From positions 263,933 to 327,932 of the forward strand of contig CAVXIM010000019.1 of the NCBI GenBank assembly GCA_963761945.1: a stretch of DNA of 64,000 bases, in the 5' to 3' direction. Shown one piece after another: positions 41,044 to 56,287 of the stretch. The number at the start of each line of letters is the position of its first letter. Position 1 is the first letter of the stretch. The translations under genes and the position numbers were made by a program. The notes below the pieces were generated by a model. That model did not search any database, was not told the DNA's origin, and saw only the letters and a program-made list of their open reading frames with translations. The DNA is from an uncultured Acidobacteriota bacterium (GTDB lineage Bacteria; Acidobacteriota; Terriglobia; Acidiferrales; UBA7541).

Positions 41044-42027
41044 CTAACAAAGGCGCGCGTTGGCGACGCGTTCGAGAATCCGGTAGGGCGCCGACTCCGG
41101 CGCCACCAGGGCTTCCGGTGGAATCAGCAGCGTCTGCTCCATCGCGTATTGTCCGGACATCGCGGCGTGGGCCACCCCATCGGTAAACACTATCCAAGTA
41201 GCGAGTGGAGGAAATTCCAGCAGCACCTTGGGAGAATTGCGCTGAAAGTCGTCATTCTCTTTCAGGTAATCATGGAACCGGAGCATAAAACGGTCATACG
41301 GCGTACGGCTCAGGCGCTTCAACCCCAGCGTCGCGGCCCACCGCGACACGTTGCGCCGCAGCGCGCCATTTTTCGCGGCGAATCGCCGCACACCTGCGCT
41401 GCCCGCGTAGTTTTCCGCGAGCCAGCCGAAATCGCCGATCGCGTACCACACGCGCGGCTTCGTCGCGTGCAGATTGGTAAAGACGCGCAGTATGCGCCCG
41501 CCGCGCGTCGGCCGCAGCCGGAACGCGTCCACGTGCAGCAGGTCGTTACGTTTGTGCAGGGAGAGGTCGCGGCCCTCTTCCTCGAAGGGGCGAAAGCTGG
41601 CGAAATCCAGCTTCCATTTCCCGGCATAAGGGCGCAGAAAATCGCGCAGAAACTCGATCACGTGCGCGCTGTAGTTTCGCAGGATGTGGTGCAGCTGCGT
41701 CTGGGTGCCATGATCGCCGGAAAATCCGCGCATCACGTCGTCCGCCGGCCGGTAGGAAACGTTTTTGTGCAGCCGCAGTTCGTTCCATTCGCGCGAGAGG
41801 AGAAATTCGCGTTCGTCCGAAGGAAATTCGTAAGGCAGCCTGGGGAAAAAGAGAATCCTGCCGGCTTCGAGTTCGCGGCAAAGCGCCTGCGCGCGGGCAT
41901 CCTTATCGGCGGAATTTCCGGAGCCCGTTCCGCCAGCCGTCCAGCCGCCCGGAAACTTGTAATCTTCCACCGCGATGCAGTTTGCGTTCTGCATTCCTGC
42001 CGTCATTCCAGTGTAGGGCTTGGTCAT
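41044..42027 (-). CDS. kdoO: Kdo 3-hydroxylase-like Fe(II)/2-oxoglutarate dioxygenase
   Basis: 'LEAGRILFFPRLPYEF', 'KNVSYRP', 'ASFRPFEEEGRDLSLHKRNDLLHVDAFRLRPTRGGRILRVFTNL..PRVW', 'WIVFTDGVAHAAMSGQYAMEQT'. The HxD...H iron ligands are present. The match to the family is from memory. Confidence 0.75.
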   Translation of the reverse strand: MTKPYTGMTAGMQNANCIAVEDYKFPGGWTAGGTGSGNSADKDARAQALCRELEAGRILFFPRLPYEFPSDEREFLLSREWNELRLHKNVSYRPADDVMRGFSGDHGTQTQLHHILRNYSAHVIEFLRDFLRPYAGKWKLDFASFRPFEEEGRDLSLHKRNDLLHVDAFRLRPTRGGRILRVFTNLHATKPRVWYAIGDFGWLAENYAGSAGVRRFAAKNGALRRNVSRWAATLGLKRLSRTPYDRFMLRFHDYLKENDDFQRNSPKVLLEFPPLATWIVFTDGVAHAAMSGQYAMEQTLLIPPEALVAPESAPYRILERVANARLC

Positions 42028-42384
42028 TTATGCATAGGGCGCGGGCAGGCCCATTTCTTTGCGGTGCGCGCGCATTTCCGTCTGCGCGTGCGTGCGGATG
42101 CGCAAATTCGAGCGCGCTTTTGCAGTGCACAGCAAAATGTATCCTGCCGCGCGGTCCTGAGGATAGTAGCTAACCGCATCGCTGGGATCAAATTCACCGG
42201 GCTCGGCGAGTTTGCCGGCGCAGGTCAAGCATCGTCCCTGATGGCAAATCGCCGGCAGGTTGATGCCGGCGGCCTTGGCTTCGTCCCAGATGTGTTCGCT
42301 TGCCCGTGCGCGGATCCTGCGCGGGCCATATGGCGTCACCAGAGTTACGTCGAAAGATTGATCCTGCAACGCGCCGTCCTTCAT
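42028..42384 (-). CDS. Plant-type [2Fe-2S] ferredoxin with C-terminal extension
   Basis: 'CHQGRCLTCAG' (Cx4Cx2C) with a fourth Cys in 'ILLCTA'. The start is set at MKDGAL (42384). The TAA stop abuts the kdoO ATG (TAAATG). Confidence 0.7.
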   Translation of the reverse strand: MKDGALQDQSFDVTLVTPYGPRRIRARASEHIWDEAKAAGINLPAICHQGRCLTCAGKLAEPGEFDPSDAVSYYPQDRAAGYILLCTAKARSNLRIRTHAQTEMRAHRKEMGLPAPYA

Positions 42385-42623
42385 TTCGCCTTGGCGTGCG
42401 GCCTGTGCGCCGTTCCTTCTCCGGGCATGTGAGAAACGATGATGACGGCAGCGCGGCAAACAAGCAAGGGTGGCGGGGAACTGGCGTTGCGCACCAGCAA
42501 GCCCATCGAGAGAACAAGCGGATTTAGCCGGCATCCACAGACTCCTTCGTCTGTGGATGCCGGCAGAGAAGTTGGCGTACTCAGGCCAAGGTCCCCGGTA
42601 AGGGGATTGGCCGTTAAAGAAGC

Positions 42624-43238
42624 TCAGGGATTGTAGAAGTGCGCATTCTTGCTGTACGGCGCTTCGCCCGGCGTGCCGCGGCGGAAGTGACCCGAGGGGA
42701 TCGACTTGCCGTCACGTTCGTGCGCCAGCAATTCGATAAACCAGGCCTCGTGCTCGATCTCCTCATTCAGAATTCGCGAAGCCATATCGTAGGTGCGCGG
42801 ATCCTTGCCGAAGGTCAAGTCGCAGATTTCGATCCAGCTGCGAATGGCGCAGCGCTCGGATTCGAGCAGCAGCGTCAGGATATTGACCGCCGTAGGGGGA
42901 TCGGGCAGCTTGGCCGCCACGCAGCCGGCCTGGTCATGGAATGCTTTCAGGTCATTGGGCAGCTCGCCGCCGAGTTCGTAAATGCGCGGAACGATGAGCT
43001 CCCAGTGGGCGCGATCTTCCAGGCGCGCATCCTCGCAGATCTCTTTGTAATCTTCGTGGCCCGCGAGGTGCATGCGCAGGATCGTATAGTAATAATAGGT
43101 GCTGGCAAACTCCGCCGCCGCGTTGGCGATCAGCATTTTGATCAGCTTCGGGACGTCCACGCCGCGCGCGCTAATCACTTCCACGCCGACGCGTTGCGAA
43201 ACGTCGCCATATTTCACAACTTGCTTTTTATCGGCCAT
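42624..43238 (-). CDS. Ferritin-like (Dps-like/DPSL-type) di-iron protein
   Basis: Four-helix ExxH-type patterns '[10 protein letters not shown]' and '[11 protein letters not shown]'. It is divergent from oxyR. The start is set at MADKKQ. Confidence 0.55.
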
Positions 43239-43293
43239 CGTTCTAGCCCTCCAAAGCACCGAGGGTAGAGTTTCTCAATGCCAAGGTCTAATA

Positions 43294-43378: not shown

Positions 43379-44275
43379 ATGGAATTGCATCAATTGCGAT
43401 ATTTCTGCGCCGTCGCTCGCGCCGGAAACTTCACACGCGCGGCCGAAGAACAGCACGTCGCGCAGCCATCGCTCTCCCAGCAGATTCGCAAACTCGAGGA
43501 CGAACTCGGCGCCAAGCTTTTCGATCGCTTCCCGCGCTTCGCGCGTCTCACCGATTTCGGCAAAGCCTTTCTGCCCAAAGCGGGCGAGATTCTGCGCCAG
43601 GTGGGCCAGGCCCGCACCGAGATTCAGGAGATGTCGCAAACCGCAGTTGGCACAGTCATCGTGGGCGCGATTCCCACCATCGCACCTTATTTTCTCGGCC
43701 CCGCGCTGGCCCGCTTTGCCAGCCTCTATCCCGCCGTGTCCATCAGTGTGGTCGAAGAGATCACCCCGATTCTGCTTGACCGGCTGCACAACGGCCACGT
43801 AGATGTGGTGGTCCTGGCGCTGCCGGTTCGCGGCGAGGAACTCCTGTCTGAGGAACTCTTTCGCGAACCTCTTTTCGCCGCCCTCCCGAATGGACACCGC
43901 CTTGCAGCCCGGCGGTCGCTGGCGCTCAGCGAGATCCGCGAAGATCCGTTTCTTCTGCTCAAGGAAGGCCATTGCTTCCGGGAAAATGCGCTTTCGGCGT
44001 GCCGCAGATCTCGGGTGAGCCCCAATGTGGTCTTCGAAAGCGGCCAATTCTCGACCATTGTTTCCATGGTGGCGACCGGTATGGGGGTCTCCGTCGTCCC
44101 TGCGATGGCCGTGGAGCGGCATCCCGGATGCAAATTCGTACGCATCAGCGATGAACGCGCGGTCCGTATAGTCGGCCACGCACAATTGAAGCACCGCTTC
44201 AAGACGCGCGCGCAATGCGCCTTGACCGACGAGTTGCGGCGCTATGCTCATACGCACCAGCCGGGAGTCGAGTGA
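43379..44275 (+). CDS. oxyR: LysR-family peroxide sensor OxyR
   Basis: wHTH 'LHQLRYFCAVARAGNFTRAAEEQHVAQPSLSQQIRKLE'. The redox pair sits in 'GHCFRENALSAC', with two Cys 9 residues apart as in E. coli C199/C208. Confidence 0.75.
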   Translation: MELHQLRYFCAVARAGNFTRAAEEQHVAQPSLSQQIRKLEDELGAKLFDRFPRFARLTDFGKAFLPKAGEILRQVGQARTEIQEMSQTAVGTVIVGAIPTIAPYFLGPALARFASLYPAVSISVVEEITPILLDRLHNGHVDVVVLALPVRGEELLSEELFREPLFAALPNGHRLAARRSLALSEIREDPFLLLKEGHCFRENALSACRRSRVSPNVVFESGQFSTIVSMVATGMGVSVVPAMAVERHPGCKFVRISDERAVRIVGHAQLKHRFKTRAQCALTDELRRYAHTHQPGVE

Positions 44276-44432: not shown

Positions 44433-46832
44433 TTGCGCATAGCCGATTCCCAAAATGGTCAACCCTTGCCTTCAATCGTAACCAGATCAGGCGAACCAAT
44501 GGGTGTGCCGCTGACCAATGGTCAGGGCCCGCGAGAGAGGCCCGTCTTCTGGCGCGTAGAGGGCAGCCTCGCGTATTTGACGGCTGTGCGCCCAGTCGCC
44601 TACTTCACCTGGAATGCGCATACCTTTGCCGAGCGATGGGCGCGGCGCGGAGGTCTTTTCCTGGAGGCCTTGGCTCGCCCAGCCTTGTACGCAACCCACA
44701 GGGTAATGGCGACTAGAATCCTGCACGCCCTCTTGCGGGGCGTGACTCGCGACCGCCTGGATCTGCTTGGCGAAGAGTATTTTCAGTATGTACTCAAGGG
44801 CCAGCTCCGGCCCGAAGGCGTGGCCAAGCTGGGCGAGTGGCTGGCCCAGCATGGGCAAGTCGTCCTGGTGAGCCAGGGCTTGGATCACGTCATGCGGCCG
44901 CTGGCGCTGCACCTGGGAATCGAGAGGCTGGTCGCCAACCGGTTGGAGTTTCGCGATGGAATTGCCACGGGCCGCTTGCTTAATCCTGTGATTCGACCAA
45001 GAGGCCCATTGGCGGCCCTCACGGGCGGGCAAGCTGATGGGCGCGTTAGCGTCGAGCAATTGCTTCGCGACCTGGGCCTAAAGCAGCATCCAGATCAACT
45101 CGCCGAAGCAATTTTTTCGGCGGAAAGATCGTCTCCTCAAAACCATAATCCTCTGGTCGTTTTTGAAAGGCATGCGGGAAGACCTCTGTCGGTGCGCCAG
45201 GCCCTCAAAGGTAAGCAGGTTTTGCTTGTGGGCGTCACCGGCTTTATCGGCAAGGTTTGGCTCGAGCATGTTCTGTCCGAAATTCCTGAAATCGGCAAGC
45301 TCTATTTGCTGGTCCGGCGGCAGCGGAACACCACGTCGCGTCGCAGATTTGAAAAGATCGTGGAAGCCTCTCCGGTCTTCGACCGGCTCGAAAAGCGCTA
45401 TGGAACTAACCTGAACGCGTTTTTAGCCGAAAAAATCGAAGTCGTGGAAGGCGATGTGAGCCTGCCCGGACTTGGCCTGGACGACAAAACGCGGGCCCGC
45501 CTGGCTCGCGCGATCGATCTGGTGGTGAATAGCTCGGGCCTGACGGACTTCAATCCCGATCTGCGCGACGCCTTGGCCAGCAACGTCGAGCCCGCCGCGC
45601 ATCTGATCGAGTTCCTTCGTGCATCCGATCATGCCGCGCTTCTGCACCTTTCCACGTGTTACGTCGTAGGCGCCCGCGACGGCCGCGTCTCCGAAGATCT
45701 GAAACCGAATTACACGCCGGCAAATGACAAGGATTTCAATATCGAGCGTGAATGGAATTCCCTGCAGGAATTGGTGCGCAAAGTCGAAGAGCGCGCTAAC
45801 AGCCCGGAAGTGGAAGCCGCACTTCGGCGCCAGGCGCTCGGCCGTCTGCATGAGAACCAGCGGCCGCCCGGACGCGAAGTGGACACTCTGATCCGCAAAA
45901 ACCGTTTGCGCTGGATACGAAACCGGCTCACGCGCGCAGCAACACGACGCGCACGAAGACTCGGCTGGCCCAACACTTACACGTTCAGCAAGAGTCTCGC
46001 GGAATCCCTCCTGGCAACGCGAGGCGCGGGTCTGCCCATCGCGGTGGTGCGCCCCTCCATCGTGGAGACCTCCATCGATCAGCCCTTTCGAGGATGGAAT
46101 GAGGGAATCAATACTTCCGCGCCTCTCTCCTACCTGCTGGGGACGTATTTCCGCCAGCTGCCCTCCAATGAGCGCAAACGCCTGGACGTGATTCCGGTGG
46201 ATATGGCCTGCCGAGGCATGACGCTGATCGCCGCGGCCCTGGTCGAGCGGCGTCACAAGCGGCTCTATCAATTGGCTACATCGGCGAACAATCCCTGCGA
46301 CATGGGGCGCTCCATCGAACTGACCGCGCTTGCCCATCGCAAGCACTACCGCGCACAGCAGGGCCTGGAGCACTGGGTACGCATGCGGTTTGACTCCATC
46401 CCTGTATCCAAACAGCGCTATCGGAAATTATCGGTGCCGGCGCAAAAGGTGGTCGTGCAAGGCATCAACCGGGCGGCATCGGCTCTCCAATTCAAGCGGC
46501 CCCCACTGGCCAAAGCAGAGCGAGAGCTGGAGCGCGTCGAGAAACTCATCGAGCTCTACGAGCCTTTCATTCTGCACAATGAGCAGGTTTTCGAATGCGA
46601 CAACGTGCAATTGCTCTCCGCTCTCCTGCCGCCGGAAGAGCGCGAGCAATTCGGCTATGAGCCGGGAATCATCGATTGGTGGGACTATTGGATCAATATC
46701 CATATTCCGGCGCTCCGCAAATGGTGTTATCCGCTGATCGAAGGCCATGCCGTGGAAAACGTCCCACGCCGCGAGTTCCACCTGCCGGACGCGGGGGATG
46801 GGCCGTCGCAAATTGACGCCAGCGGCAGCTGA
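44433..46832 (+). CDS. Degenerate HAD-IB-like domain fused to a fatty acyl-CoA/ACP reductase (NAD_binding_4 + FAR C-terminal domain)
   Basis: Reductase part: '[19 protein letters not shown]', 'HLSTCYVVG', '[11 protein letters not shown]' (YxxxK). In the N-terminal ~230 aa, 'VFWRVEGSL' stands where HAD proteins carry DxDGT. The start is uncertain (44433 TTG or 44499 ATG). Confidence 0.65.
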
Positions 46833-46837
46833 TCTAC

Positions 46838-48016
46838 ATGGCTATCTTTCTTACCGGCGCAACCGGATACATCGGATCGTACCTGGCAGCGGGACTCCTC
46901 GAACAACACGGCGAAACCTTGAATCTTCTGGTTCGGGCAGAAGATACGGAGGAAGCACAACACAGGCTGTGGCACTCCATGCAGCTGCACTTCGATTTTC
47001 CGGCCTTCCGCGAGCACCTCTCTGCGCGCATGCGCATTTTCTGCGGCGATCTGACTTCGCCGCGCTTTGGCCTGAATGACGAGCAATACGATTTGCTGGC
47101 CGCGACCACCGATTCGGTGTTGCATTGCGCGGCCTCGCTCAACCGCAAATCGGAAAAAAGCTGCTTGAATGTAAATTTGCGCGGCACGCTCGAGGTGGTT
47201 CAACTTGCGCGCCGCGCTCATGACGCGCATGGGTTGCGGCGGTTCAGCGAAGTAAGCACCGTGGCGGTCGCCGGCAGGCGCAGCAACGAACTTGTCACAG
47301 AAGACGGCGCCATCGATTGGGAGCGTTCCGATTACGATCCCTACGCGCGCACCAAGAAATTCGGCGAGCACATGGTTCGGGAACTGCTTCCGGACGTTCC
47401 GCGCACGATTTTTCGGCCGAGTATCGTGCTGGGAGACAGCCGCCGCGCGGAAACCACGCAATTTGACATGGTGAAGGCTTTCGTCTTCTTAGGCAGGCTG
47501 CCAGTGCTGCCGTTTCGCGCCAACGATTGCGTGGATATTGTGCCCGTTGACTACGTGGCAGACGCAATTGTGACCTTGCACCAGCATCCTCATCCGAAAC
47601 ATGAGATCTATCACCTATCTTCGGGGGTGAATTCTGAAAGCTTTCGAGAATTGACCGCGGCACTGGCGGCGGCTCGCGGAAAAATGAAGCCGTTATTTTG
47701 GCCTGAGTTGGAGGCGCCTTTCCGCGGAATTGTGGAGCGGCTCGCCCGCCGCCGCGACAATCTGGGTTACGCTGCTTCCCTGCTAAAGGTATTCTTGCCG
47801 TATCTCGTGTGGAACACGGTTTTCGATAATACGCGCGTGGTGGCTGAGTTGGGGCGCGCTCCCGCGCCCTTCTCCTCCTACTGTTTTCCACTATTTCGCT
47901 TTGCCAAAGAGAACCGATTCCGTTATCCCTATCGCGACTGGCCGAAGGGATCGGAGACAATGACCGCCGCTAATACACGTGCCGAACATTCCGTCGCCGG
48001 AGGATCCCAGCGATGA
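46838..48016 (+). CDS. Thioester-reductase-type SDR (stand-alone R domain)
   Basis: '[21 protein letters not shown]', 'VLHCAASLN', '[12 protein letters not shown]', '[10 protein letters not shown]'. Confidence 0.6.
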
Positions 48017-49449
48017 TGGATTTCGTGCTGGAGGCGTGGGTCAGCCTGTTGATCGAACGAGCCAAACTCGAGTGGATTCTCGGCTTCGGCCGCGCACGGC
48101 GCCCCGGAGAGCGCCTGAAACTGCTGCTGGCCTGCTATGCCGGCGCGCGCAACACCGGTTCCGATCTTCGGGTAGAAGAAATGATCCGGCAAATTCGGCA
48201 TGTCCTGGGTGCGGAACGGGTGGAGCTGAGCGTCACAACGCAGAATTTTGATTTGACGCGAGGTTATTTTCAAGGCGCCACGCAGGTAAAGCTGCCAGAC
48301 GTCTTCCCCGGTTTTCTTTATCGTCAGGTGCGCAAGAACGACGGCGCCATCGCGTGCGAGGGCTCCATGTTCAAAAGCACGTGGGCGGATGCGTTGACGA
48401 CCATGATGGTGGGGAGTCTAGGGCTCGCGGTGGCGCAGAACAAGCTTTCGGTGGGTTACGGCGGAGATGCGGATCGCATGAACCCGATGCTGGCATGGAT
48501 GTGCCGGCGGTATTGCCGGCAGTCGTTCGTGATCGCGCGAAGTTCGGGATCACAGGCGGTGCTTCGCGATCAAGGCATTCCTGCGGAACTGGGCACGGAT
48601 ACAGCCTGGACGTTTGAGTCAAATCAGCCTGAGTTCGGGCGCCAAGCGCTTCACCAGGCCGGATGGGATGGAGTCACACCGGTGCTCATCGTGTGCGCCA
48701 GCGATCCTTTCTGCTGGCCGGTGAAGCCTTCGCTGGTGAAATATCTGGCGCGTGTGCTTACGGGCGCCTACAAGAAGAGTCAATATCGCACGATCTATTT
48801 TCACAAGGCCGGTCCGGAGGTCGACGCTGCATTGAACCGCATGCTCACGGGAATGAGCAAAGCGGTGAACGCCTTCCGGCAAAGGCACAAAGTGTTCCCC
48901 GTCGTGGTGGGCACCGAACAGATCGACAAGAATGCCTGTCTGGAAGTTGCCAGGCAGCTCGGAGGCGTGCCCGTATTCACGTCGGATATGTATGACATGC
49001 ACCAATTGGTGAGCATTCTGCGCGCAGGCCACATGATGGTCTCTTCGCGTTATCACGCCATCGTCACCACGATGCCAAGTTTGGTGCCGTCAGCCGGTAT
49101 AGCCATGGACGAACGCATTCGCAACCTGATGGAGGAGCGCGGCCATGTTGACCTTATGGTTGGCGTTAACGATCCCGAACTCGAGACCAAGCTGATCGCC
49201 GCGATGGAGAGGCTGCGCACCGATGCGGACTCTATTCGCGAGGCCATGGGACGGACGGTAGTACAGAATCTCAAACGGATGGCGCGCATGGGCGTATACC
49301 TGGAACGCGTCGTGCACGAACGCTATCCTGAATTTCCCATCCAGGGCGGCATAAGAAGCTGGGAGGATTATCTTCCTCCGTTGAATCCTGCGCTGAGGCA
49401 ATTAGTGGAGCTATACGACAGCCGGACGCAGGCAATGGCGGCGAACTAA
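48013..49449 (+). CDS. Polysaccharide pyruvyl transferase-fold protein
   Basis: '[27 protein letters not shown]' and '[32 protein letters not shown]' resemble the CsaB/WcaK family. The call is by eye. Confidence 0.5.
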
Positions 49450-49467
49450 AGAGTAGCGAGAATTCGA

Positions 49468-51111
49468 GTGAATTTTCTGGAAAGTATTTTTGAACGCCTC
49501 GCGGGGGCGCCCGGACGCCTGGTGCTCGAGGAGATGCGGCCCGGAGGCCGTGTCTCTGTGAACGGAGGCGAACTGCTCGAACGCGTCGCGGCAGCTCGCG
49601 CATTTCTCGGCGCAGCCGGGCTCCGTAAGGGCGACCGCTGCGCGCTGCTCGCGCCGAACAGCATCCATTGGGTTGCGCTGGATTTGGCGGCGATGGCCGA
49701 TGGAATCATGGTCGTGCCGCTCTATGCGCGGCAAGCGCCCGCCGAACTCGCGGCCATGATTAACGATGCTCAGCCGGCGATCATCTGTTGTGGCGACTCT
49801 ACGTTACAGCGAGATTTGCTTGCGGCCATGCCCCGCGCGGCACCGCGCACGATGCTTCTCGAGGAGATTTTCGCCGCGCGGCCCCAAGCCGCGGTTCCCG
49901 CGAAGCCTATTACTCTGGCCGATGCTGATCCGGTCGCGATCACTTACACCTCCGGCAGTTCCGGCGAGCCGAAGGGCGTTGTACTCAATGTTGGCAACGT
50001 GACGTATATGCTCTCCTGCACGAACGCACGGCTCGGGCAGCTCATGGACGGGCGCGGGGAGCCAGACCGCGTGTTTCACTATTTGCCATTCTGTTTTGCC
50101 GGCTCCTGGATTCTGCTGCTCTCCTGCCTTTTGCGGCTGAGTGAATTGCGGCTCGCGACCGACTTAACGCGTTTGGCCGACGACCTGCGCGAAGCGGCCC
50201 CGGACTATTGCTTGAATGTGCCGCAATTGCTCGAACGAATGCGCTCCGCGGTGGAGACACAACTCGCCAAGCGAGGCGGATTCGCCAACAAAATATTCGC
50301 CAATGCAAAAGCGGCAGCGCTCGAAGGCAAAAACGGGGCAAGGCGCGGCATTTCTCTGCTGGTCGCGGAGAGACTGCTCTTCCCCGCGATCCGCAAAAAA
50401 TTGGGTCCCAATCTCAAGGCCTTGATTTGCGGTTCGGCGCCGCTGGCGCCGGAAACTCAACTCTTTTTCCAAATGCTCGGCATCCCCGTGCTGCAGGTCT
50501 ACGGGCTCACCGAGACCACCGCGATTTGCACCATGGACGATCCCCGGCGCGTAGAACCAGGAGCCGTCGGTCCGGCGATTCCCGGAATCGAGATGAAGCT
50601 TGGCGACCATGACGAAATTCTCGTACGCGGGCCGAATGTTTTCGCCGGTTATTGGAACCGGCCGGACGAGACACTCAAGGCAATGGCCAACGGCTGGTTC
50701 CACACAGGCGATCAGGGCGAGCGAACCGCCGGCGGCAACTGGCGCATCGTGGGACGGCTAAAGAATTTGCTGATCCTCAGCTCCGGCCATAATATTGCGC
50801 CGGAGCCGCTGGAGGAAACATTGGTGCGCGCCATCCCCGCCGCGCAGCAGGTGATGCTTTTCGGGCATGGGCGCAGCTTCTTATCGGCTCTCGTGACCGG
50901 AGAAGTAAAGCGCGATGCCGTGGAGACAGCTATTGCCAAGTTGAATTCGGCTCTGCCCCACTATCGGCAAATCCGGGCGTTTTACATCGAACCCCGGCCG
51001 CTAACGGTGGAGAGCGGTTTGCTCACGACGATGGGCAAGCTGCGCCGCGACGCCATCGCCGCGCAATTCCGGGACGCGATTGAATCGATGTACCTAAGAA
51101 ATCCAACGTGA
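49468..51111 (+). CDS. Acyl-AMP/CoA ligase (AMP-binding family) I
   Basis: 'AITYTSGSSGEPKGVVL', 'YGLTETT', 'GWFHTGDQG', 'GKLRR'. GTG start. Confidence 0.8.
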   Translation: MNFLESIFERLAGAPGRLVLEEMRPGGRVSVNGGELLERVAAARAFLGAAGLRKGDRCALLAPNSIHWVALDLAAMADGIMVVPLYARQAPAELAAMINDAQPAIICCGDSTLQRDLLAAMPRAAPRTMLLEEIFAARPQAAVPAKPITLADADPVAITYTSGSSGEPKGVVLNVGNVTYMLSCTNARLGQLMDGRGEPDRVFHYLPFCFAGSWILLLSCLLRLSELRLATDLTRLADDLREAAPDYCLNVPQLLERMRSAVETQLAKRGGFANKIFANAKAAALEGKNGARRGISLLVAERLLFPAIRKKLGPNLKALICGSAPLAPETQLFFQMLGIPVLQVYGLTETTAICTMDDPRRVEPGAVGPAIPGIEMKLGDHDEILVRGPNVFAGYWNRPDETLKAMANGWFHTGDQGERTAGGNWRIVGRLKNLLILSSGHNIAPEPLEETLVRAIPAAQQVMLFGHGRSFLSALVTGEVKRDAVETAIAKLNSALPHYRQIRAFYIEPRPLTVESGLLTTMGKLRRDAIAAQFRDAIESMYLRNPT

Positions 51112-51930
51112 GCGCCTCTAAAATTCATCTTTCCGAAAAGACCAAGACGCTTTCCTGGGAGCTGAAGGACGGCACGATCGAACTCGCGCTCGATCACGCT
51201 CCTTGCAACGAGATCGGCACCGCGATGCTGGAGGACCTGGAACAATTTGTCGAGGCGCTCGAGCGGGCAGAAGGGAAAGCCTCGGCTTTGATCATATACA
51301 GCCGGCGGGAAGCGGGATTTTCGGCAGGCGCCGATTTGCGGGAACTTTACGCGGCGAGCGCGGGGCTTGCGGCAGCCGAGCGCGTTTCGGGCGCGCGGTC
51401 ATTTCTGGAACGCATCCATCGGGTTTTAAACGCGATCGACGCTTCCCCGCTGACTACCATCGCGGCGGTGCACGGTGTTACCTTCGGCGGCGGCTTCGAG
51501 CTGGCCCTGGCTTGCGATTTGATCATTGCGGACAAGATGGCGCGCTTCTGTTTCCCGGAATTGCGTCTGGGACTCATTCCGGGCTTTGGCGGGATTCCGC
51601 GATTGCGCCGGGATCTTGGCAACGCCGTCGTTCGCGATCTCCTGCTCACCGGCCGCAGCATCAATGCCGCCAAAGCGCTGGCGGTGGGGCTGGTGAGCCA
51701 GATGGCCGGCGAAGGCGAAGCTTTGAGAGTGGCGCGCGCGACGGCTGCAGCAGGCGGGCAAATTCGACCGCACGACGAGTGCGGCGGCCAAGCGCTTCCT
51801 CAAACCCATTCCGCACGAGGAATTGCGGCGCGAGATCGACCTCTTTTGCGAACTCTTCGAGCGGCCCACGGTTATGGAGGCGCTTCGCAAATTTGTCGAG
51901 AACGCGGGCGCGCATCCTTATTTGCCGTAG
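51108..51930 (+). pseudogene. Enoyl-CoA hydratase/isomerase (crotonase) family, frame break ~51741-51755
   Basis: 'FSAGADLRE', 'AAVHGVTFGGGFELALACDLIIA' in frame 0. A third frame continues 'QAGKFDRTTSAAAKRFLKPIPHEELRREIDLFCELFERPTVMEALRKFVENAGAHPYLP*' and ends at 51930. Confidence 0.75.
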
Positions 51931-51967
51931 TCGCGCGCGCAAACTTTGGAATGTAAAATAGGCTTCC

Positions 51968-52210
51968 GTGAAGACGCTCGAACAGACCACAGACGAAATT
52001 CTGGGATTGGCCGCGCATCATTTCAAGATTCCGCGCGAGGAACTTGCGCCAAGTGACGATTTCTACAAAAAGCTCAAGATCGATAGCTTGCGCGCGCTCG
52101 AATTGATCACGCGGCTGGAACATCATTTTGGCATCGAACTTCCCGACTACGAAGTGCAGGGCGTGACGGATTTTCACACGCTGGCGAGCCGCATCCAGGC
52201 ACGTTTATGA
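51968..52210 (+). CDS. Acyl carrier protein
   Basis: 80 aa with the phosphopantetheine site 'LKIDSLRALELITRLEHHFGIEL'. GTG start. Confidence 0.8.
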   Translation: MKTLEQTTDEILGLAAHHFKIPREELAPSDDFYKKLKIDSLRALELITRLEHHFGIELPDYEVQGVTDFHTLASRIQARL

Positions 52211-52216
52211 CTACCC

Positions 52217-53950
52217 TTGTACCCACCCGCGCTTGTAATTCGCATGCTTGATTTGAGCCAATACGATTCGCTCGGTGCCGCATTGAGCGGAGCGATTCAG
52301 CGCTGGCCGGACGAACTCTGCCTCATCGAGGCAGATCGCGAGCATGAGCGCTGCCGCTTGACCTATCGCGAGTTTAGCCTCGCAGCGCTTCAACTGGCCG
52401 CCGGCCTCCAACAAAACGGGTTTGCTCCCGGTGATCGGGCGGCGATCTTGATGAGCAATCAATCTAAATGGTTGATTTCAGCCTACGCCGTTTTCTTTTG
52501 CGGTGGCGTGCTGGTGCCGCTCGATTACAAGCTGACGCCCGCAGAACATCGGGCACTCATAGCACACTCGAAATCGCGTGTGCTGATCGTGGAATATCCC
52601 ATCTGGCGCGCGCTGAGCCAGAGCGATTTTTCGGCCACGCAAGTGGTGACCATCCTGGTGACGGAAGCGCCCGCAGGCGCCGACCTTGCCGGCGCGAAAA
52701 GATGGGAAGAATGTCATGGCGAAAAGGCGCCTGAAGTTCAGCCGCGAAAACGGGAAGACGCCGCCTGCATCGTCTATTCCTCGGGAACAGGCGGGCGCCC
52801 TAAAGGCTGCGTGCTGACGAATGAAAATTATCTCGAGCAATGCGCCGCGGTTGCTCCCTTGTGGCCGTTTTGGCCAGGCGCACGCTACCTGAGTATCATT
52901 CCGACAAATCATGCCATCGATTTCATGGGTGGCTTCATCATGCCCTTTACCGGCGGCGGCACTGTCGTGCATCTGCGCACTTTGCGGCCGGAGTATATCC
53001 GCGAAGCCTTCACGCGTTACAAGATCACCTATATGGCGGTTGTGCCGCTGATTCTGAAAAATCTGGAACGCGGGCTGCGGGAGCGGTTTGCGGCGCTGCC
53101 GCCTATGAAGCGGCGCGTGCTAGACGCAATGGTGCGCGTGAATCGCATTGCCACTCACCGCCGTCCGAAGCTGTGGCTCAGCCGCTTGCTCCTGAAGGAT
53201 GTTCATCGGGGTTTTGGGGGCGAACTGCGAGCGCTGCTGGTTGGGGGCGCCTTTACCGAGCCGAAGACGCTCGAGTTTTTCCACGATTTGGGAATCCAAA
53301 TCGCGAACGGTTATGGGTGCACGGAAGCATGCACGGCGATCACGGTCAACGACATGAAGCCGTTCCGTCCTGATACCTTGGGCAGGCCCGTGGCGGGGAT
53401 GCAAGTACGCATCGTCAATGCAGGCGCCGATGGGGTGGGCGAAGTGGCAGTTCGCAGCAAAACGGTTATGTCCCATTATCTTGACGATCCGGAACTGACG
53501 GCGGAGACGATCGTGGACGGCTGGTTACTGACTGGGGATCTTGGAAAAATCGACACCAGCGGGCATCTGCAGCTTCTCGGCCGAAAGAAGAACATGATCG
53601 TTACCGCCGAAGGCAAAAACATCTATCCTGAAGATATCGAGAACGTATTCGAGAGCCTGCCGGTGAAAGAGTTTTGCGTGTTTGCGGCGAACTATTTATG
53701 GCCGCAGCGCACCATGACCGGCGAAAAACTGGTGCTCGTCGTGCGTCCGGATCCGACCCAAAACGCAAACGGCTCTATGCGCAGGGAGCTGGAGCTTCGC
53801 AACCAGCGCCTGGCGCCCTACAAGCGCATCAGCGGCTACGTGCTCTGGCCTGAAGATTTCCCGCGCACGGCATCTCTAAAAATCAAACGAAACATCCTGG
53901 CCGAACAGATCGGCGGCCAGTTGGATCGCAGTGCTGTGCAGCCCTTGTGA
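52217..53950 (+). CDS. Acyl-AMP/CoA ligase (AMP-binding family) II
   Basis: '[18 protein letters not shown]', 'NGYGCTEA', 'GWLLTGDLG', 'SLKIKR'. Confidence 0.8.
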
Positions 53951-54849
53951 GCGACGCGTTTCTTGCCATCGTGAATCCAGCCGCGGGAGGCGGACGCTGC
54001 GGCAAATTGGCAAAAGCGGCGCTGGAAAAGCTGCGCGCAGCCGGAATTGAATTGCAGGTGGCGGAAACCTCCAGGGCCGGAGAGGCAACATGCTTGGCTC
54101 GGCAGGCTTATGCAAGGGGCCAGCGACAATTTATCGCGGTCGGGGGAGACGGGACCGCATACGAAATAGTAAATGGACTTTTCCCGAGAGCTGAGGGTGC
54201 GGACAAACCGGTTTTGGGTTTTCTGCCGCTCGGCACGGGCAACTCCTTTCTTCGCGATTTCACCAGCAATGGCGCGGAACACGCCAGAGAAGCCATCCTC
54301 GCCGGCAAACGGAGATCGAGTGACGTCCTTTGCCTGCAGCATTCCGGCGGCAAGCTTTACTTCATCAACCTGCTGAGCGTGGGATTCACGGCCGACGTAA
54401 CGGCGGCGGCTAATCGCAGCTTCAAGAGCTTAGGCGAGCTTGGATATTTGGTTGGCGTGGTGTTATGCCTCGCACGCCTGCGGCGCCGGGCCTTTCCTGT
54501 GCGTGCGGATGACGACATGGAGTTCGACGGCCGGCGCTGTCTCTTTCTCAGCTTCAACAACAGCCGATACACCGGGGGCAATATGAGGATCGCGCCACAA
54601 GCCTCTACCTGCGACGGCCTGATCGAATATGTCCGCTGGGGGCCGATCGGGAGAATCGGCCTGCTGCGGAACTTGCGCACGCTTTTCGATGGAACGCACA
54701 TTCATCACCCGCTGGCTTCGCGCCGCGCCGTGCGGCGGATTGAATTCGCACTCGACGAGCGCGTGGACGTGATGATCGACGGAGAAGTGCTCACATTAAA
54801 ATTGGAAAGCGTGGAGGTACTTCCTGGAGGTCTGGACGTCCTGGTATGA
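53947..54849 (+). CDS. Diacylglycerol-kinase-fold lipid kinase (YegS/DAGK catalytic domain)
   Basis: '[14 protein letters not shown]', '[16 protein letters not shown]', '[16 protein letters not shown]'. Confidence 0.75.
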
Positions 54850-55679
54850 CCGTTCCGCCTGAAAATCCCTGCGCGACGCAAAATTCCGCCGTGGCTGAAG
54901 GCCAGCCCTCGATTTACGAAATACTGCGCAGCGCTTTCCGGTGGTTTCTGGCCGGAGCCTTCTTCTTCTCCGTTTGTCCCGCGCTTATTCTGCTCGGGAT
55001 TTTTGTCGATCCGCGGCGGTGGAATGATGGGCCGCAACGCTGGTTATCCCGGACCTCGGTACGGCTTGCGGGTGCGCGCGTGGAGGTTCGGCGCTCACCG
55101 GGATTCAATCCAAACCGCGTTTGTTTTTTAGTTTCCAATCACGTCAATCTTTTTGACCCCTTCGTGCTATACAGCATCGTGCCCCAATTTATGCGCGGGC
55201 TGGAACTGGAGTCGCATTTCCGCATTCCGGTATACGGCTGGCTGATGAAACGCTTCGGCAACGTGCCGGTTCCCGAGGCTAATCGGCCGTCCGATCTGAA
55301 ACGTATGTGGCGCTTGACTCGCGCGGCGCTGGATGGAGGCGTGAGTCTGGCCGTCTTTCCCGAAGGCGGCCGGACAATCACAGGCCGCGTGGGTCCTTTC
55401 CACGACGGGGTCTTTCGTATGGCGCGCGATTTCGGCACACCGATCGCGCCGGTGAGCATCGTCGGCGCGTTTGCATTCAATCGCAAGACCAGTTGGATAC
55501 TACGGCGTTCGACCATCGTGGTGTGGCTGCACGATACGATCGAAACAGAGGGCTACGGTAAGGGAGAGGTGGCCGAGTTGCGCGACCGCGTATGGAGGGC
55601 CGTCGCAGGGCCCGTTCATGCTTCCATGGGCGAAACAGCCGTCACCGAGCCCGAAGCACAGGCGGGAGCAAACGTCTAG
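54846..55679 (+). CDS. Lysophospholipid (PlsC/AGPAT-type) acyltransferase
   Basis: An N-terminal TM, 'VSNHVNLFDPFVLY' (HxxxxD) and 'FPEGGRT'. Confidence 0.8.
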   Translation: MTVPPENPCATQNSAVAEGQPSIYEILRSAFRWFLAGAFFFSVCPALILLGIFVDPRRWNDGPQRWLSRTSVRLAGARVEVRRSPGFNPNRVCFLVSNHVNLFDPFVLYSIVPQFMRGLELESHFRIPVYGWLMKRFGNVPVPEANRPSDLKRMWRLTRAALDGGVSLAVFPEGGRTITGRVGPFHDGVFRMARDFGTPIAPVSIVGAFAFNRKTSWILRRSTIVVWLHDTIETEGYGKGEVAELRDRVWRAVAGPVHASMGETAVTEPEAQAGANV

Positions 55680-56287
55680 GCAACCAAGTGTATGCCTGGG
55701 AGCGTGCGGCCCGCTTTCGTTTCCTGCCAGGTATACACGATGCGGTGAATCACCGTGATTGTCGAAACCACGGCGATCACCCACAGCGCAGGCGCCATGC
55801 GGTCAAAGGTGCCGCCCAATATGAGCAGCACCAGCCGCTCAGGCCGTTCCATGAAACCGACTTTGCACGTGGGAATTAAGGACTCTGCGCGGGCGCGCGA
55901 GTAACTCACCATAACCGATCCAGCCGTGGCCACCGCGGCCAAAATTACGTAAGAAGCTCTGCCGTTAACTGCATAGTAAACGAGCAGTCCCATGTACAGA
56001 GCCATATCGGAATAGCGATCGAGCGTGGAATCGAAAAAAGCTCCGAATGCGGTGACGCGTTGCTCGCGGCGCGCGACCTGGCCATCGAGAATATCCAGAA
56101 ATCCAGCGAGGAAGATCACCGCCGCGCCCGATCTGAACATGCCTTCAGCAAACAGCAGCGCAGCCCAAAAGTTCACGACCAAGCCAAAGGCCGTCAGGAC
56201 ATTGGGATTGATGCCGGTGGCGGCGATGGCTACGACAATCTTGTCCAGTAGCCATCGACTGCCGTCTCCGATAGAACGAGTAATCAT
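55676..56287 (-). CDS. CDP-alcohol phosphatidyltransferase family protein
   Basis: The full motif DG-x2-AR-x8-G-x3-D-x3-D is present in 'DILDGQVARREQRVTAFGAFFDSTLDRYSD'. The 3' end overlaps the acyltransferase by 4 nt (convergent). Confidence 0.8.
   Translation of the reverse strand: MITRSIGDGSRWLLDKIVVAIAATGINPNVLTAFGLVVNFWAALLFAEGMFRSGAAVIFLAGFLDILDGQVARREQRVTAFGAFFDSTLDRYSDMALYMGLLVYYAVNGRASYVILAAVATAGSVMVSYSRARAESLIPTCKVGFMERPERLVLLILGGTFDRMAPALWVIAVVSTITVIHRIVYTWQETKAGRTLPGIHLVA

What the first reader, a model, noticed from the sequence alone, without database searches (positions are those of the whole stretch)
44433..56287. Ten-gene accessory lipid operon (2 acyl-AMP ligases, ACP, 2 reductive SDRs, crotonase, pyruvyl-transferase fold, lipid kinase, AGPAT) plus a convergent CDP-alcohol transferase
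The genes are packed like an operon. There are 4-nt overlaps at 48013, 51108, 53947 and 54846, and gaps of 5-37 nt elsewhere. The canonical phospholipid genes plsY, gpsA and pgpA sit elsewhere in the window, so this looks like an additional pathway. The domain set supports a sequence of steps: fatty acid activation (TSGSSGEPKG / [10 protein letters not shown]), loading on a dedicated ACP (DSL), reductive release by an R-domain SDR and a FAR-type reductase (to aldehyde and alcohol), then acylation (HxxxxD), phosphorylation (GGDGT kinase) and head-group transfer (complete CDP-alcohol motif). From memory, the myxobacterial ether-lipid enzyme ElbD combines CoA-ligase, ACP, reductase and AGPAT domains in one polypeptide. 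Here a similar toolkit is split into separate genes and extended. If the host is an acidobacterium, this is a candidate locus for alkyl-glycerol or other fatty-alcohol-derived membrane lipids, whose genetics are incompletely known. I cannot name a characterised pathway with exactly this gene set.
Basis: partly seen in the sequence, partly recalled or inferred. Interest (0 to 1): 0.8.

Follow-up and report, generated by a model that had tools for sequence, protein, structure and literature searches.

The report
Uncharacterised conserved ether-lipid-type operon
Ten tightly packed lipid genes, conserved in hundreds of uncultured soil Acidobacteria and in some Myxococcota, probably make an unusual fatty-alcohol-based membrane phospholipid by an uncharacterised route, which bears on the unsolved origin of bacterial ether lipids used as climate proxies.

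Summary
Nine co-directional genes (44433-55679) and one convergent gene (55676-56287) have the stated domains, 4-nt overlaps and small gaps.

Genes 1-8 are all present in 55 of 80 related species genomes from three acidobacterial lineages, and colinear in 52. An orthologous cluster occurs in a Myxococcales MAG and a minimal one in Pseudobacteriovorax. All ten genes are under purifying selection (dN/dS 0.03-0.14).

It is not an ElbD system, because no multidomain protein is present. It also carries two enzymes absent from every characterised lipid pathway I could find: a pyruvyl-transferase-like GT-B enzyme and a hydratase-type crotonase. The transferase is fused elsewhere to the fatty-alcohol reductase and to an acyl ligase.

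My best, unproven, reading has five steps:
- Fatty acid is reduced to fatty alcohol.
- PEP-dependent enolpyruvyl transfer makes the ether.
- The product is activated as a thioester, then hydrated and reduced to an O-alkylglycerol.
- That product is phosphorylated and acylated.
- An inositol-phosphate head group is added.

In uncultured Terriglobales the cluster sits next to a tetraether-synthase (Tes) homologue.

The parts
43379..44275 (+). LysR-family regulator directly upstream. It is a possible regulator of the operon; membership is uncertain.
   Evidence: Pfam HTH_1 plus LysR_substrate. It is 92% identical and in the same position in L010. A LysR gene recurs upstream in 16 related loci.
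44433..46832 (+). g1: degenerate HAD-like domain fused to an alcohol-forming fatty acyl reductase (FAR: NAD_binding_4 plus Sterile). The likely true start is ATG 44500.
   Evidence: Pfam. PDB 7EOZ fatty acyl-CoA reductase 1.1e-41. Relatives are 781 aa. The HAD motif I DxDxT is absent in 0/71 orthologues and is replaced by WRVEGS in 69/71. HAD is a separate gene in the Myxococcales and P0124 clusters.
46838..48016 (+). g2: stand-alone thioester reductase (R-domain type SDR).
   Evidence: Pfam and TIGR01746. The closest structure is the MxaA reductase domain 4U7W, 1e-24. It is 54% identical to the Myxococcales orthologue.
48013..49449 (+). g3: pyruvyl-transferase-like GT-B enzyme. I propose it is the ether/backbone-forming step (PEP plus fatty alcohol).
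   Evidence: CsaB model 1.3e-12. AF2 pLDDT 85, pTM 0.87. GT-B fold matches. SSRYH and DERxRN are invariant in 81/81 orthologues. It is fused to FAR in P0274 and to a g4-type ligase in P0160.
49468..51111 (+). g4: acyl-CoA-synthetase-type ligase (AMP-binding plus AMP-binding_C_3, FadD11-like). It is absent from the Myxococcales and Pseudobacteriovorax clusters.
51108..51930 (+). g5: hydratase-type crotonase. It is interrupted by a 1-nt insertion near 51749/51750. The uncorrected ORF runs 51108-51956.
   Evidence: ECH_1 7e-35. Both catalytic Glu motifs (GGGxE, PE) are present in 70/70 orthologues. For the frameshift, the frame +1 C-terminus matches relatives, and L005 and L010 are intact. Deleting one base restores ARATAAQAGKFDR and gives 273 aa.
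51968..52210 (+). g6: dedicated acyl carrier protein (DSL).
   Evidence: PP-binding 4e-11. It is always next to the crotonase and the g7 ligase in every cluster type.
52217..53950 (+). g7: acyl-AMP/ACP ligase. This is the universal ligase of the cluster.
   Evidence: AMP-binding 4e-71. It is 50% identical to the only ligase of the Myxococcales cluster and 35% to that of Pseudobacteriovorax.
53947..54849 (+). g8: YegS/BmrU-family lipid kinase (GGDGT).
   Evidence: DAGK_cat plus YegS_C. TIGR00147 scores 127 bits, above the 118.65 cut-off. It is conserved in 55 loci and in Myxococcales at 49% identity.
54846..55679 (+). g9: membrane AGPAT-family acyltransferase (NHxxxxD).
   Evidence: Acyltransferase 6.5e-20. 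HX4D is present in 40/40 orthologues. It is present in 38 of 55 complete loci and in Myxococcales.
55676..56287 (-). g10: convergent CDP-alcohol phosphatidyltransferase of the phosphatidylinositol-phosphate synthase type, with its own promoter-like site at 56344-56316.
   Evidence: NF040950 163.5 bits (cut-off 180) and NF045883 132 bits (cut-off 170). PDB 6H53 6.5e-24. The full CDP-alcohol motif is present in 34/34 orthologues. It is present in 33 of 55 complete loci at 70-94% identity. Promoter-like site, 10/12 match.

Best explanation
This is a dedicated, vertically conserved operon that makes a fatty-alcohol-derived, ether-type phospholipid. The C3 backbone is proposed to come from phosphoenolpyruvate rather than from glycerol-3-phosphate.

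Proposed steps (all inferred; none shown biochemically):
1. A fatty acid is activated. In Acidobacteria this is probably by g4. In the g4-less clusters cellular acyl-CoA or acyl-ACP would serve.
2. The FAR domain of g1 reduces it to a fatty alcohol.
3. g3 is a pyruvyl-transferase-like GT-B enzyme that keeps the PEP-binding Arg / Arg-x-His / basic signature. It transfers the enolpyruvyl group of PEP to the alcohol and releases phosphate. The product is an O-alkyl enolpyruvate (2-alkoxyacrylate). This is MurA-like ether formation.
4. That new carboxylate is adenylated and loaded as a thioester (g7 plus ACP g6, or g4 to CoA).
5. The crotonase g5 hydrates the 2-alkoxyacryloyl thioester to a 2-O-alkylglyceroyl thioester.
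6. The thioester reductase g2 releases it reductively as O-alkylglyceraldehyde or O-alkylglycerol.
7. The lipid kinase g8 phosphorylates it.
8. In this lineage g9 acylates the remaining hydroxyl. After CDP activation by the housekeeping CdsA, g10 adds inositol phosphate.

My confidence in the general claim (a dedicated fatty-alcohol-based phospholipid pathway, Elb-like in logic but a different system) is about 0.75. My confidence in the specific PEP/enolpyruvyl-ether mechanism is about 0.3.
For: - Domains and catalytic motifs are all present and conserved.
- dN/dS is 0.03-0.14 for all ten genes.
- At least 595 species genomes hold a g3 relative. Among the best 80, 55 have all of g1-g8 and 52 are colinear. 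These span gp2/Acidiferrales, gp1/Terriglobales and Blastocatellia.
- A Myxococcales MAG carries the orthologous cluster HAD-FAR-TER-PSPT-ECH-ACP-ligase-DAGK-AGPAT at 34-54% identity.
- Pseudobacteriovorax keeps only a FAR-PSPT fusion, ECH, ACP and a ligase. So the transferase and crotonase are core, not accessory.
- There are two independent fusions: FAR-PSPT (P0274) and PSPT-ligase (P0160). They place g3 between fatty-alcohol formation and a carboxylate activation. A pyruvyl or enolpyruvyl transfer is a reaction that turns an alcohol into a new carboxylic acid. It also creates the enoyl group a crotonase needs.
- In the single-ligase Myxococcales cluster, each enzyme other than the unexplained HAD protein is used exactly once under this scheme.
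- g3 has a GT-B fold and matches the CsaB model at 1.3e-12.
- Invariant R176, R346-x-H348 and R368 fit the spacing of the experimentally defined PEP binders R148, R306, H308 and K328 of CsaB (PMC10435577; conservation). The mapping is by motif and spacing, not by alignment.
- g1 is most similar to an alcohol-forming FAR, and g2 to the MxaA reductase domain. From my own knowledge, MxaA releases its substrate as an alcohol.
- g5 has both hydratase glutamates.
- g10 is closest to PIP synthases.
- In about 10 Terriglobales-type loci a homologue of the tetraether synthase lies directly upstream (PDB 7TOL, 4.6e-60). This ties the cluster to membrane-core lipid biosynthesis.
Against: - There are no biochemical or lipidomic data. 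The hosts are uncultured.
- In this window's clade, g3 scores below Pfam's threshold for PS_pyruv_trans. No sequence match to a solved pyruvyl transferase was obtained.
- The scheme predicts a 2-O-alkyl ether. Acidobacterial and myxobacterial monoethers are reported as 1-O-alkyl (PMC10087280, PMC9131029).
- It cannot be decided which ligase serves which acid. The g3-g4 fusion and adjacency point to g4. The g4-less clusters point to g7/ACP.
- The Pseudobacteriovorax cluster lacks the thioester reductase, and L087 lacks the crotonase.
- The HAD-like domain has no role in the scheme.
- g9 and g10 are missing from Terriglobales and Blastocatellia loci.
- The crotonase is frameshifted in this very window. 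If that is real, this copy is defective at the hydration step.
Confidence: 0.4

Rival explanations
1. Elb-like reductive route. The ligase and ACP load a fatty acid. The reductases make fatty aldehyde and alcohol. These are joined to a glycerol-phosphate-derived acceptor by an unidentified step, then acylated, phosphorylated and given a head group. The pyruvyl-transferase-like enzyme and crotonase only decorate or trim the product, for example a pyruvate ketal on the free diol of a monoalkylglycerol or on the inositol head group.
For: The Pfam-level toolkit is shared with elbA-E: HAD, FAR, ACS, ACP, AGPAT and NAD-epimerase-type reductases (PMC9131029). Elb-like clusters with DAG kinase, acyltransferase and CDP-alcohol transferase neighbours have been noted in sponge Acidobacteriota and Poribacteria (bioRxiv 10.64898/2026.06.23.733905). 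This route would give the 1-O-alkyl regiochemistry actually reported.
Against: No ether-forming enzyme is identified. No AGPS or Ger/PlsA was seen in the locus. The transferase and crotonase are retained in the most reduced cluster, while the kinase, AGPAT and head-group enzyme are lost. That is the opposite of what is expected for decorating enzymes. The FAR-PSPT and PSPT-ligase fusions are unexplained. The word 'pyruvyl' occurs nowhere in the preprint that describes the elb-like clusters.
Confidence: 0.2
2. Non-glycerol anionic lipid. The g7/ACP pair carries a fatty acyl chain and the crotonase makes 3-hydroxyacyl-ACP. FAR reduces it to an alkane-1,3-diol. g3 then closes a six-membered pyruvate ketal on the 1,3-diol, the same geometry as 4,6-O-pyruvyl hexoses. 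g4 and g2 reduce the pyruvyl carboxylate, and g8 phosphorylates the new alcohol.
For: Characterised family members are ketal-forming and act on 1,3-related diols (PMC10435577). The contiguous ECH-ACP-g7 order in all cluster types suggests the crotonase works on the g7/ACP-bound substrate. This scheme uses g1-g8 linearly in Acidobacteria.
Against: No dehydrogenase is present to create the 2-enoyl substrate. In the Myxococcales cluster there is no second ligase, so the thioester reductase has no substrate. The product has no free hydroxyl for the AGPAT. I know of no such lipid in nature.
Confidence: 0.15
3. The product is not a bulk membrane lipid. It could be a specialised metabolite, signal or storage compound (fatty alcohol, wax or alkoxy acid), or a lipid anchor for a pyruvylated glycan. 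The kinase, AGPAT and PIP-synthase genes would be ordinary phospholipid genes that happen to sit nearby.
For: g9 and g10 are lineage-specific. g10 is convergent with its own promoter-like site. A TetR or LysR regulator is often adjacent. Distant g3 paralogues sit in PKS/FAS-like contexts (L089).
Against: The kinase g8 is conserved with the core in 55 loci and in Myxococcales, and it overlaps its neighbours by 4 nt. The operon is present in at least hundreds of species as a single chromosomal copy, with host-like GC and strong purifying selection. That pattern fits a housekeeping-type trait. A tetraether-synthase homologue is adjacent in some loci.
Confidence: 0.1

Closest known systems
Myxococcus xanthus elbA-E ether-lipid operon (ElbD multifunctional enzyme; Lorenzen et al. 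2014, as summarised in PMC9131029)
   Same: The Pfam-level parts list is the same: a HAD-like protein (ElbB), FAR-type reductase, acyl ligase, ACP, AGPAT, and NAD-epimerase-type reductases (ElbA/E). It starts from fatty acids and is thought to end in alkyl ether phospholipids. Its ether-forming step is likewise unknown.
   Different: Here all the ElbD domains are separate genes, and HAD is fused to FAR instead. The cluster also has a pyruvyl-transferase-like enzyme, a crotonase, a lipid kinase, a second ligase and a PIP-synthase-type gene. According to the sources read, these are not part of elb. Sequence-level orthology to Elb proteins could not be tested, because no Elb sequence was obtainable with these tools.
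elb-like gene cluster families of sponge-associated Acidobacteriota and Poribacteria (bioRxiv 10.64898/2026.06.23.733905; PMC9426513)
   Same: These are acidobacterial clusters. They combine fatty-acid activation and reduction with glycerol-phosphate acyltransferase, DAG kinase and CDP-alcohol phosphatidyltransferase genes.
   Different: Those families are defined by a multidomain or two-piece ElbD homologue. No pyruvyl-transferase-like gene is mentioned (0 occurrences of 'pyruvyl'). The present cluster is from soil gp2/gp1/Blastocatellia lineages and has a different core.
MurA/MurB chemistry (UDP-GlcNAc enolpyruvyl transfer then reduction to the lactyl ether of MurNAc)
   Same: This is the only well-established biological route (from textbook knowledge) in which an alcohol is converted to an O-alkyl ether by attack on C2 of PEP. 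It is the chemical precedent for the proposed g3 step.
   Different: MurA has a different fold and acts on a sugar nucleotide. Here the enol ether would be hydrated by a crotonase on a thioester rather than reduced by a flavoenzyme.
Ketal pyruvyl transferases CsaB / Pvg1p / WcaK (PF04230)
   Same: The fold is GT-B. g3 matches the CsaB model at 1.3e-12. It has a conserved Arg, Arg-x-His and basic residue with spacing like the PEP binders of CsaB.
   Different: g3 is about 100 residues longer, with long C-terminal helices. It scores below family thresholds in this clade. It is embedded in and fused to fatty-acyl enzymes rather than glycan genes. Its acceptor is probably a lipid alcohol.
Eukaryotic / MXAN_1676 peroxisomal-type route (FAR1, GNPAT, AGPS)
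   Same: It uses an alcohol-forming FAR with a Sterile domain to supply the alkyl chain.
   Different: No AGPS (flavoenzyme) or DHAP acyltransferase is present in the locus.
Tetraether synthase Tes / GDGT-MAS (PDB 7TOL)
   Same: A homologue (4.6e-60) lies immediately upstream of the cluster in about 10 uncultured Terriglobales loci.
   Different: It is not present in this window. The function of bacterial Tes homologues is unconfirmed (PMC11868695).

Membership tests
ElbD-type ether lipid system | A single multifunctional protein carrying FAR, acyl ligase, ACP and AGPAT domains (or a two-piece split of it) | tested here: not met
   The four domains are on four separate genes (g1, g7/g4, g6, g9). 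The same holds in all related loci.
ElbD-type ether lipid system | Sequence orthology to M. xanthus ElbB/ElbD/ElbE | not testable with these tools
   No Elb sequence could be retrieved.
ElbD-type ether lipid system | Accessory HAD-like (ElbB) and NAD-epimerase-type (ElbE) proteins in the cluster | tested here: met
   g1 has an N-terminal PF12710 domain. It is a separate HAD gene in L092 and in the P0124 locus. g2 hits NAD_binding_4/Epimerase. This holds at Pfam level only.
Polysaccharide pyruvyl transferase (PF04230 / CsaB) | Profile match above the curated threshold | tested here: inconclusive
   Window protein: PF04230 scores 20 bits against a 25.3 cut-off, and TIGR03609 scores 47.6 against 213. 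Relatives at 65% identity or less and the fused homologues pass PF04230.
Polysaccharide pyruvyl transferase (PF04230 / CsaB) | GT-B fold | tested here: met
   AF2 model pLDDT 85, pTM 0.87. The top Foldseek hits are GT-B enzymes at E about 1e-7.
Polysaccharide pyruvyl transferase (PF04230 / CsaB) | PEP-binding residues (CsaB R148, R306, H308, K328) | tested here: inconclusive
   R176, R346, H348 and R368 are invariant across the family and have compatible spacing. The correspondence rests on motif and spacing only, because no alignment to CsaB or Pvg1p was obtainable.
Polysaccharide pyruvyl transferase (PF04230 / CsaB) | PEP-dependent pyruvylation of a saccharide acceptor | not testable with these tools
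   This needs an enzyme assay. The genomic context and fusions argue for a lipid acceptor.
Alcohol-forming fatty acyl reductase (FAR) | NAD_binding_4 Rossmann domain with GxTGFxG and YxxxK, plus a C-terminal Sterile domain | tested here: met
   Pfam 1.5e-52 and 1e-9. Motifs seen. PDB 7EOZ 1.1e-41.
HAD phosphatase | Motif I DxDxT/V nucleophile and motif IV acidic residues | tested here: not met
   0/71 orthologues have DxDxT and 69/71 have WRVEGS. The stand-alone Myxococcales HAD has FFRVEGTL. Only the motif II/cap region aligns to SerB.
Enoyl-CoA hydratase (crotonase) with hydratase chemistry | Both catalytic glutamates (GGGxE and xPE) | tested here: met
   70/70 orthologues have both, including the window copy. 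The window copy carries a frameshift downstream of both.
Phosphatidylinositol-phosphate synthase (CDP-alcohol transferase) | Complete D(x)2DG(x)2AR(x)8G(x)3D(x)3D motif and a best match to PIP/AIP synthase models | tested here: met
   The motif is present in the window copy and in 34/34 orthologues. NF040950 scores 163.5 and NF045883 scores 132, both just below their equivalog cut-offs. PDB 6H53 6.5e-24. Use of inositol phosphate was not tested.
YegS/BmrU lipid kinase | DAGK_cat plus YegS_C, GGDGT, score above the TIGR00147 cut-off | tested here: met
   127 bits against 118.65. GGDGT is present in 56/57 orthologues. The substrate is unknown.

The most novel reading that the evidence does not exclude
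The ether bond and the C3 backbone of an alkyl glycerophospholipid are made de novo from phosphoenolpyruvate. A pyruvyl-transferase-like enzyme enolpyruvylates a fatty alcohol. The resulting alkoxyacrylate is thioesterified, hydrated by a crotonase and reduced to an O-alkylglycerol, which is then phosphorylated. This would be a third route to bacterial ether lipids, neither radical nor flavin-dependent and with no evident oxygen requirement. In uncultured Terriglobales it sits next to a Tes homologue, so it is a candidate for the missing ether-forming half of brGDGT biosynthesis in Acidobacteria.
Probability: 0.27. Interest if true: 0.92.

Novelty: new variant of a known kind. Interest (0 to 1): 0.77.

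Why it matters
How aerobic Acidobacteria make ether-bound and membrane-spanning lipids is an open question. That includes the brGDGTs used worldwide as palaeotemperature and pH proxies. Recent papers state the following (PMC13159169, PMC11868695, PMC13274423):
- Ger and Mss are absent from most acidobacterial genomes.
- Tes homologues are rare.
- The elb cluster is confined to some subdivision 4 genomes, and its role is unproven.

This locus is a concrete, cloneable candidate:
- It has a compact eight-gene core.
- It is conserved in several hundred species of the dominant uncultured soil and peat lineages (gp1, gp2, Blastocatellia).
- It is shared with Myxococcota.
- In some genomes it is adjacent to a Tes homologue.

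It also contains an enzyme pairing seen in no characterised lipid pathway I could find: a pyruvyl-transferase-like enzyme with a crotonase. Even if the product is not a glycerol ether, its chemistry is likely to be new. The Myxococcales orthologue and the five-domain Pseudobacteriovorax version offer simple systems for reconstitution.

Tried and rejected
1. Direct comparison with ElbD, ElbB or ElbC was not possible. 
2. I looked for cultured hosts to correlate with known lipid phenotypes. The best 120 homologues of the window's g3 and of a Terriglobales g3 are all from MAGs or metagenomes, as are the 80 genome loci. Two cluster look-ups yielded one organism name, Pseudobacteriovorax. No phenotype link was obtained.
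3. The Caulobacter ceramide-phosphoglycerate pathway (lipid kinase CpgB plus unknown CpgA/C) was considered as an analogue and dropped. No serine palmitoyltransferase is present here, and that literature mentions no pyruvyl transferase.
4. Sequence and profile searches of g3 against the PDB found nothing. The PEP-site mapping therefore rests on motifs.
5. Recurrent neighbours other than Tes look unrelated to the pathway. These are homocitrate-synthase-like plus Iso_dh genes, GMC oxidoreductase, MFS, VKOR and Zn-ADH.
6. Distant g3 homologues (31-37% identity) are either alone or in a different ACP/KS context, so they add nothing on function.
7. Promoter and terminator scans were not above shuffled expectation. 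There were no Rfam hits. No inositol-phosphate synthase was found among the window ORFs checked.
8. A wax-ester or lipid A modification pathway was considered. No wax synthase or lipid A enzymes are in the operon. The upstream Kdo hydroxylase is conserved only in the closest clade and sits on the opposite strand.

Full report
**What is there**

The region 44433-56287 holds nine co-directional ORFs and one convergent ORF.
- g1: FAR-type reductase (NAD_binding_4 1.5e-52 plus Sterile 1e-9).
- g2: stand-alone thioester reductase.
- g3: 478-aa protein with a weak pyruvyl-transferase signature (PF04230 7e-4; CsaB model 1.3e-12).
- g4: acyl-CoA-synthetase-type ligase (with AMP-binding_C_3).
- g5: crotonase.
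- g6: ACP.
- g7: second ligase.
- g8: YegS/BmrU lipid kinase, above its NCBIfam cut-off.
- g9: AGPAT-family acyltransferase.
- g10: convergent CDP-alcohol transferase. Its best models are archaetidylinositol-phosphate and phosphatidylinositol-phosphate synthase (163.5 and 132 bits, just under the equivalog cut-offs). Its best structure is the mycobacterial PIP synthase 6H53 (6.5e-24).

The quoted motifs are all in the translations. The junctions are as described: -4, -4, -4 and -4 nt overlaps, and gaps of 5, 18, 37 and 6 nt. GC content is the same as the flanks. The rest of the window is ordinary chromosome (UvrB, GroEL, RibBA, plsY, gpsA).

**Corrections to the observation**

- The operon has nine genes plus one convergent gene, not ten plus one.
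- The crotonase is frameshifted. Frame 0 runs into an Arg-rich nonsense tail, while frame +1 encodes a C-terminus matching relatives.
- A DNA alignment shows one extra base in GCAGCAG near 51749/51750. The closest relatives L005 and L010 are intact. Deleting one base restores ARATAAQAGKFDR and a 273-aa protein ending at 51930.
- This may be an assembly error or a recent lesion.
- Relatives of g1 are 781 aa, so ATG 44500 is a likelier start than TTG 44433.

**Host and conservation**

The closest g3 homologues (84-95% identity) are from metagenomes and from gp2 / Candidatus Acidiferrales MAGs.

In the best 80 loci:
- 55 contain all of g1-g8, and 52 of these are colinear.
- 3 have the g5-g8 block inverted.
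- Almost all the others are cut by contig ends.

The loci come from gp2/Acidiferrales, gp1/Terriglobales (including Candidatus Sulfotelmatobacter and peat MAGs) and Blastocatellia. g9 and g10 are found in 38 and 33 of the 55 complete loci. They are essentially the Acidiferrales-type loci, and g10 is the most conserved protein of all (70-94% identity). dN/dS against L005 is 0.03-0.14 for all ten genes. Catalytic motifs are retained across orthologues.

**Beyond the phylum**

- A Myxococcales MAG (GCA_009992505.1, L092) has HAD, FAR, thioester reductase, PSPT-like, crotonase, ACP, ligase, lipid kinase, AGPAT and TetR in one string. Identity to the window proteins is 34-54%. Its single ligase is the g7 type (50%), not g4 (26%).
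- A Pseudobacteriovorax MAG has only a FAR-PSPT fusion protein, crotonase, ACP and a g7-type ligase.
- Another metagenomic contig has a PSPT-g4-type-ligase fusion followed by a g2-type reductase, a membrane protein, an SDR and an A-(T)-R carboxylic-acid-reductase-like protein.
- A contig whose g3 is 45% identical shows HAD as a separate gene, followed by FAR, TER, PSPT, g4, ECH, ACP and g7.

The evolutionary core is therefore FAR, the PSPT-like enzyme, crotonase, ACP and the g7 ligase. The reductase g2, HAD and the kinase usually accompany it. g4, g9 and g10 are lineage add-ons.

**What g3 is**

- An AlphaFold model built on 28 homologues is confident (pLDDT 85, pTM 0.87). It matches GT-B enzymes, the fold of ketal pyruvyl transferases.
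- Across the family, down to 23% identity, a few residues are invariant. They include R176, R346, H348, D366 and R368. SSRYH and DERxRN occur in 81/81 orthologues.
- In CsaB, mutagenesis identified R148, H308 and K328, and docking added R306, as PEP binders (PMC10435577). The Arg ... Arg-x-His ... (+20) basic pattern is the same in g3.
- This mapping is an inference from motif and spacing. No sequence alignment to a solved pyruvyl transferase could be obtained.

**Mechanistic reasoning (inference throughout)**

The cluster has two reductases and one or two carboxylate-activating enzymes around a PEP-type transferase, plus a hydratase-type crotonase (both catalytic Glu present).

Transfer of the enolpyruvyl group of PEP to a fatty alcohol would do two things at once. 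It would form an ether bond and regenerate a carboxylate, which explains a ligase downstream of, and elsewhere fused to, g3. It would also produce an alpha,beta-unsaturated acyl group, which explains the crotonase. This is the first half-reaction proposed for ketal pyruvyl transferases and is the chemistry of MurA.

Hydration of the 2-alkoxyacryloyl thioester gives a 2-O-alkylglyceroyl thioester. The nearest structural relative of g2 is the MxaA reductase domain, which from my own knowledge releases its substrate as an alcohol. g2 would release an O-alkylglycerol. The kinase, AGPAT and PIP-synthase-type enzyme then complete an ether phospholipid.

In the Myxococcales cluster every enzyme except the HAD protein is used exactly once under this scheme.

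Weak points:
- The ligase assignment is ambiguous.
- The Pseudobacteriovorax cluster lacks the thioester reductase, and L087 lacks a crotonase.
- The HAD-like domain lacks the DxDxT nucleophile (0/71; WRVEGS in 69/71; FFRVEGTL in the stand-alone Myxococcales protein). It has no assigned role.
- The predicted ether is at C2. Reported acidobacterial and myxobacterial monoethers are 1-O-alkyl.

**Link to membrane-spanning lipids**

In about 10 Terriglobales-type loci a 706-aa radical SAM gene lies directly upstream of g1 on the same strand. These are L014, L021, L032, L027, L073, L022 and L077, plus partial copies in L015, L020 and L012. The gene carries the HMPTM zinc-ribbon domain and matches the tetraether synthase GDGT-MAS (7TOL) at 4.6e-60. 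It is not in this window. In a Blastocatellia locus a FabH gene is inserted between the crotonase and the ACP.

**Comparison with what is known**

The M. xanthus elb operon encodes the following (PMC9131029):
- ElbA and ElbE: NAD-epimerase type.
- ElbB: HAD-like.
- ElbC: unknown function.
- ElbD: a FAR-ACS-ACP-AGPAT multidomain protein.

Its ether-forming step is unknown. The present cluster shares that parts list at Pfam level. It fails the defining feature, the multidomain ElbD, and it adds PSPT, crotonase and kinase.

Elb-like clusters with kinase, acyltransferase and CDP-alcohol transferase neighbours were noted in sponge symbionts in a 2026 preprint. They are ElbD-centred, and the word 'pyruvyl' does not occur in the text. 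Searches found no paper linking a pyruvyl transferase to ether lipids or describing this gene set.

Recent papers state that the acidobacterial route to ether and brGDGT lipids remains unresolved (PMC13159169; PMC11868695; PMC13274423).

**Verdict**

- The locus is a real, ancient and widely conserved lipid operon of unknown product. It is Elb-like in logic but is a different system.
- The PEP/enolpyruvyl-ether model is my best mechanistic hypothesis, at about 0.3. The general assignment stands at about 0.75.
- Interest is high. The locus makes a long-standing question experimentally approachable, and its core enzyme combination is new.

Noticed in passing
window 51745-51755 (g5 crotonase): A single-base insertion in GCAGCAG frameshifts the crotonase. 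The closest relatives L005 and L010 are intact. It is either an assembly error or a recent pseudogenisation of one step of the pathway.
   Followed up: yes
L014:3844-5964; also L021, L032, L027, L073, L022, L077, L015, L020, L012: A radical SAM gene homologous to the archaeal tetraether synthase GDGT-MAS (7TOL, 4.6e-60) lies directly upstream of the cluster in uncultured Terriglobales. It is absent from this window.
   Followed up: partly
L010:10001-11434 versus window 48013-49449: L010 is the closest relative by flanking genes (LysR 92%, g1 87%, g7 86%), but its g3 is only 63% identical. dN is 0.28 against about 0.08 for the neighbours, with similar dS. This suggests either accelerated evolution or allelic replacement of the transferase within one clade. 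In the window's clade g3 has also dropped below the Pfam threshold.
   Followed up: partly
window 44500-45150 (g1 N-terminus); L092:7578-8237: The HAD-like domain has RVEG(S/T) in place of the DxDxT nucleophile motif in all orthologues. This includes the stand-alone Myxococcales protein. It is probably a non-catalytic HAD fold of unknown role.
   Followed up: partly
L031:16703-17704: In a Blastocatellia MAG a FabH (KAS III) gene is inserted between the crotonase and the ACP. ABC-transporter fragments lie between g3 and g4.
   Followed up: no
L001:3874-6220 and 17-18 other loci: Homocitrate-synthase-like (HMGL plus HCS_D2) and Iso_dh genes sit directly upstream of g1 on the same strand in many gp2-type loci. 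This is probably unrelated amino-acid biosynthesis. I did not examine it.
   Followed up: no
L001:14293-14556, L002:7563-7826: A small PDDEXK_3 gene is inserted between the ACP and the g7 ligase in one lineage.
   Followed up: no
window 41044-43259 (minus strand): Kdo hydroxylase, a 2Fe-2S ferredoxin-domain protein and a ferritin-like protein lie upstream of the LysR gene. The Kdo hydroxylase is conserved there only in the closest clade (L003, L005, L010).
   Followed up: no
L089:4032-11419: A distant g3 paralogue (31% identity) closes a different ACP-dependent cluster with ACP, two ketosynthases, a MaoC dehydratase, a TPP enzyme, a metallophosphatase and a PPTase. The family may act on carrier-protein-derived lipids more widely.
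   Followed up: no
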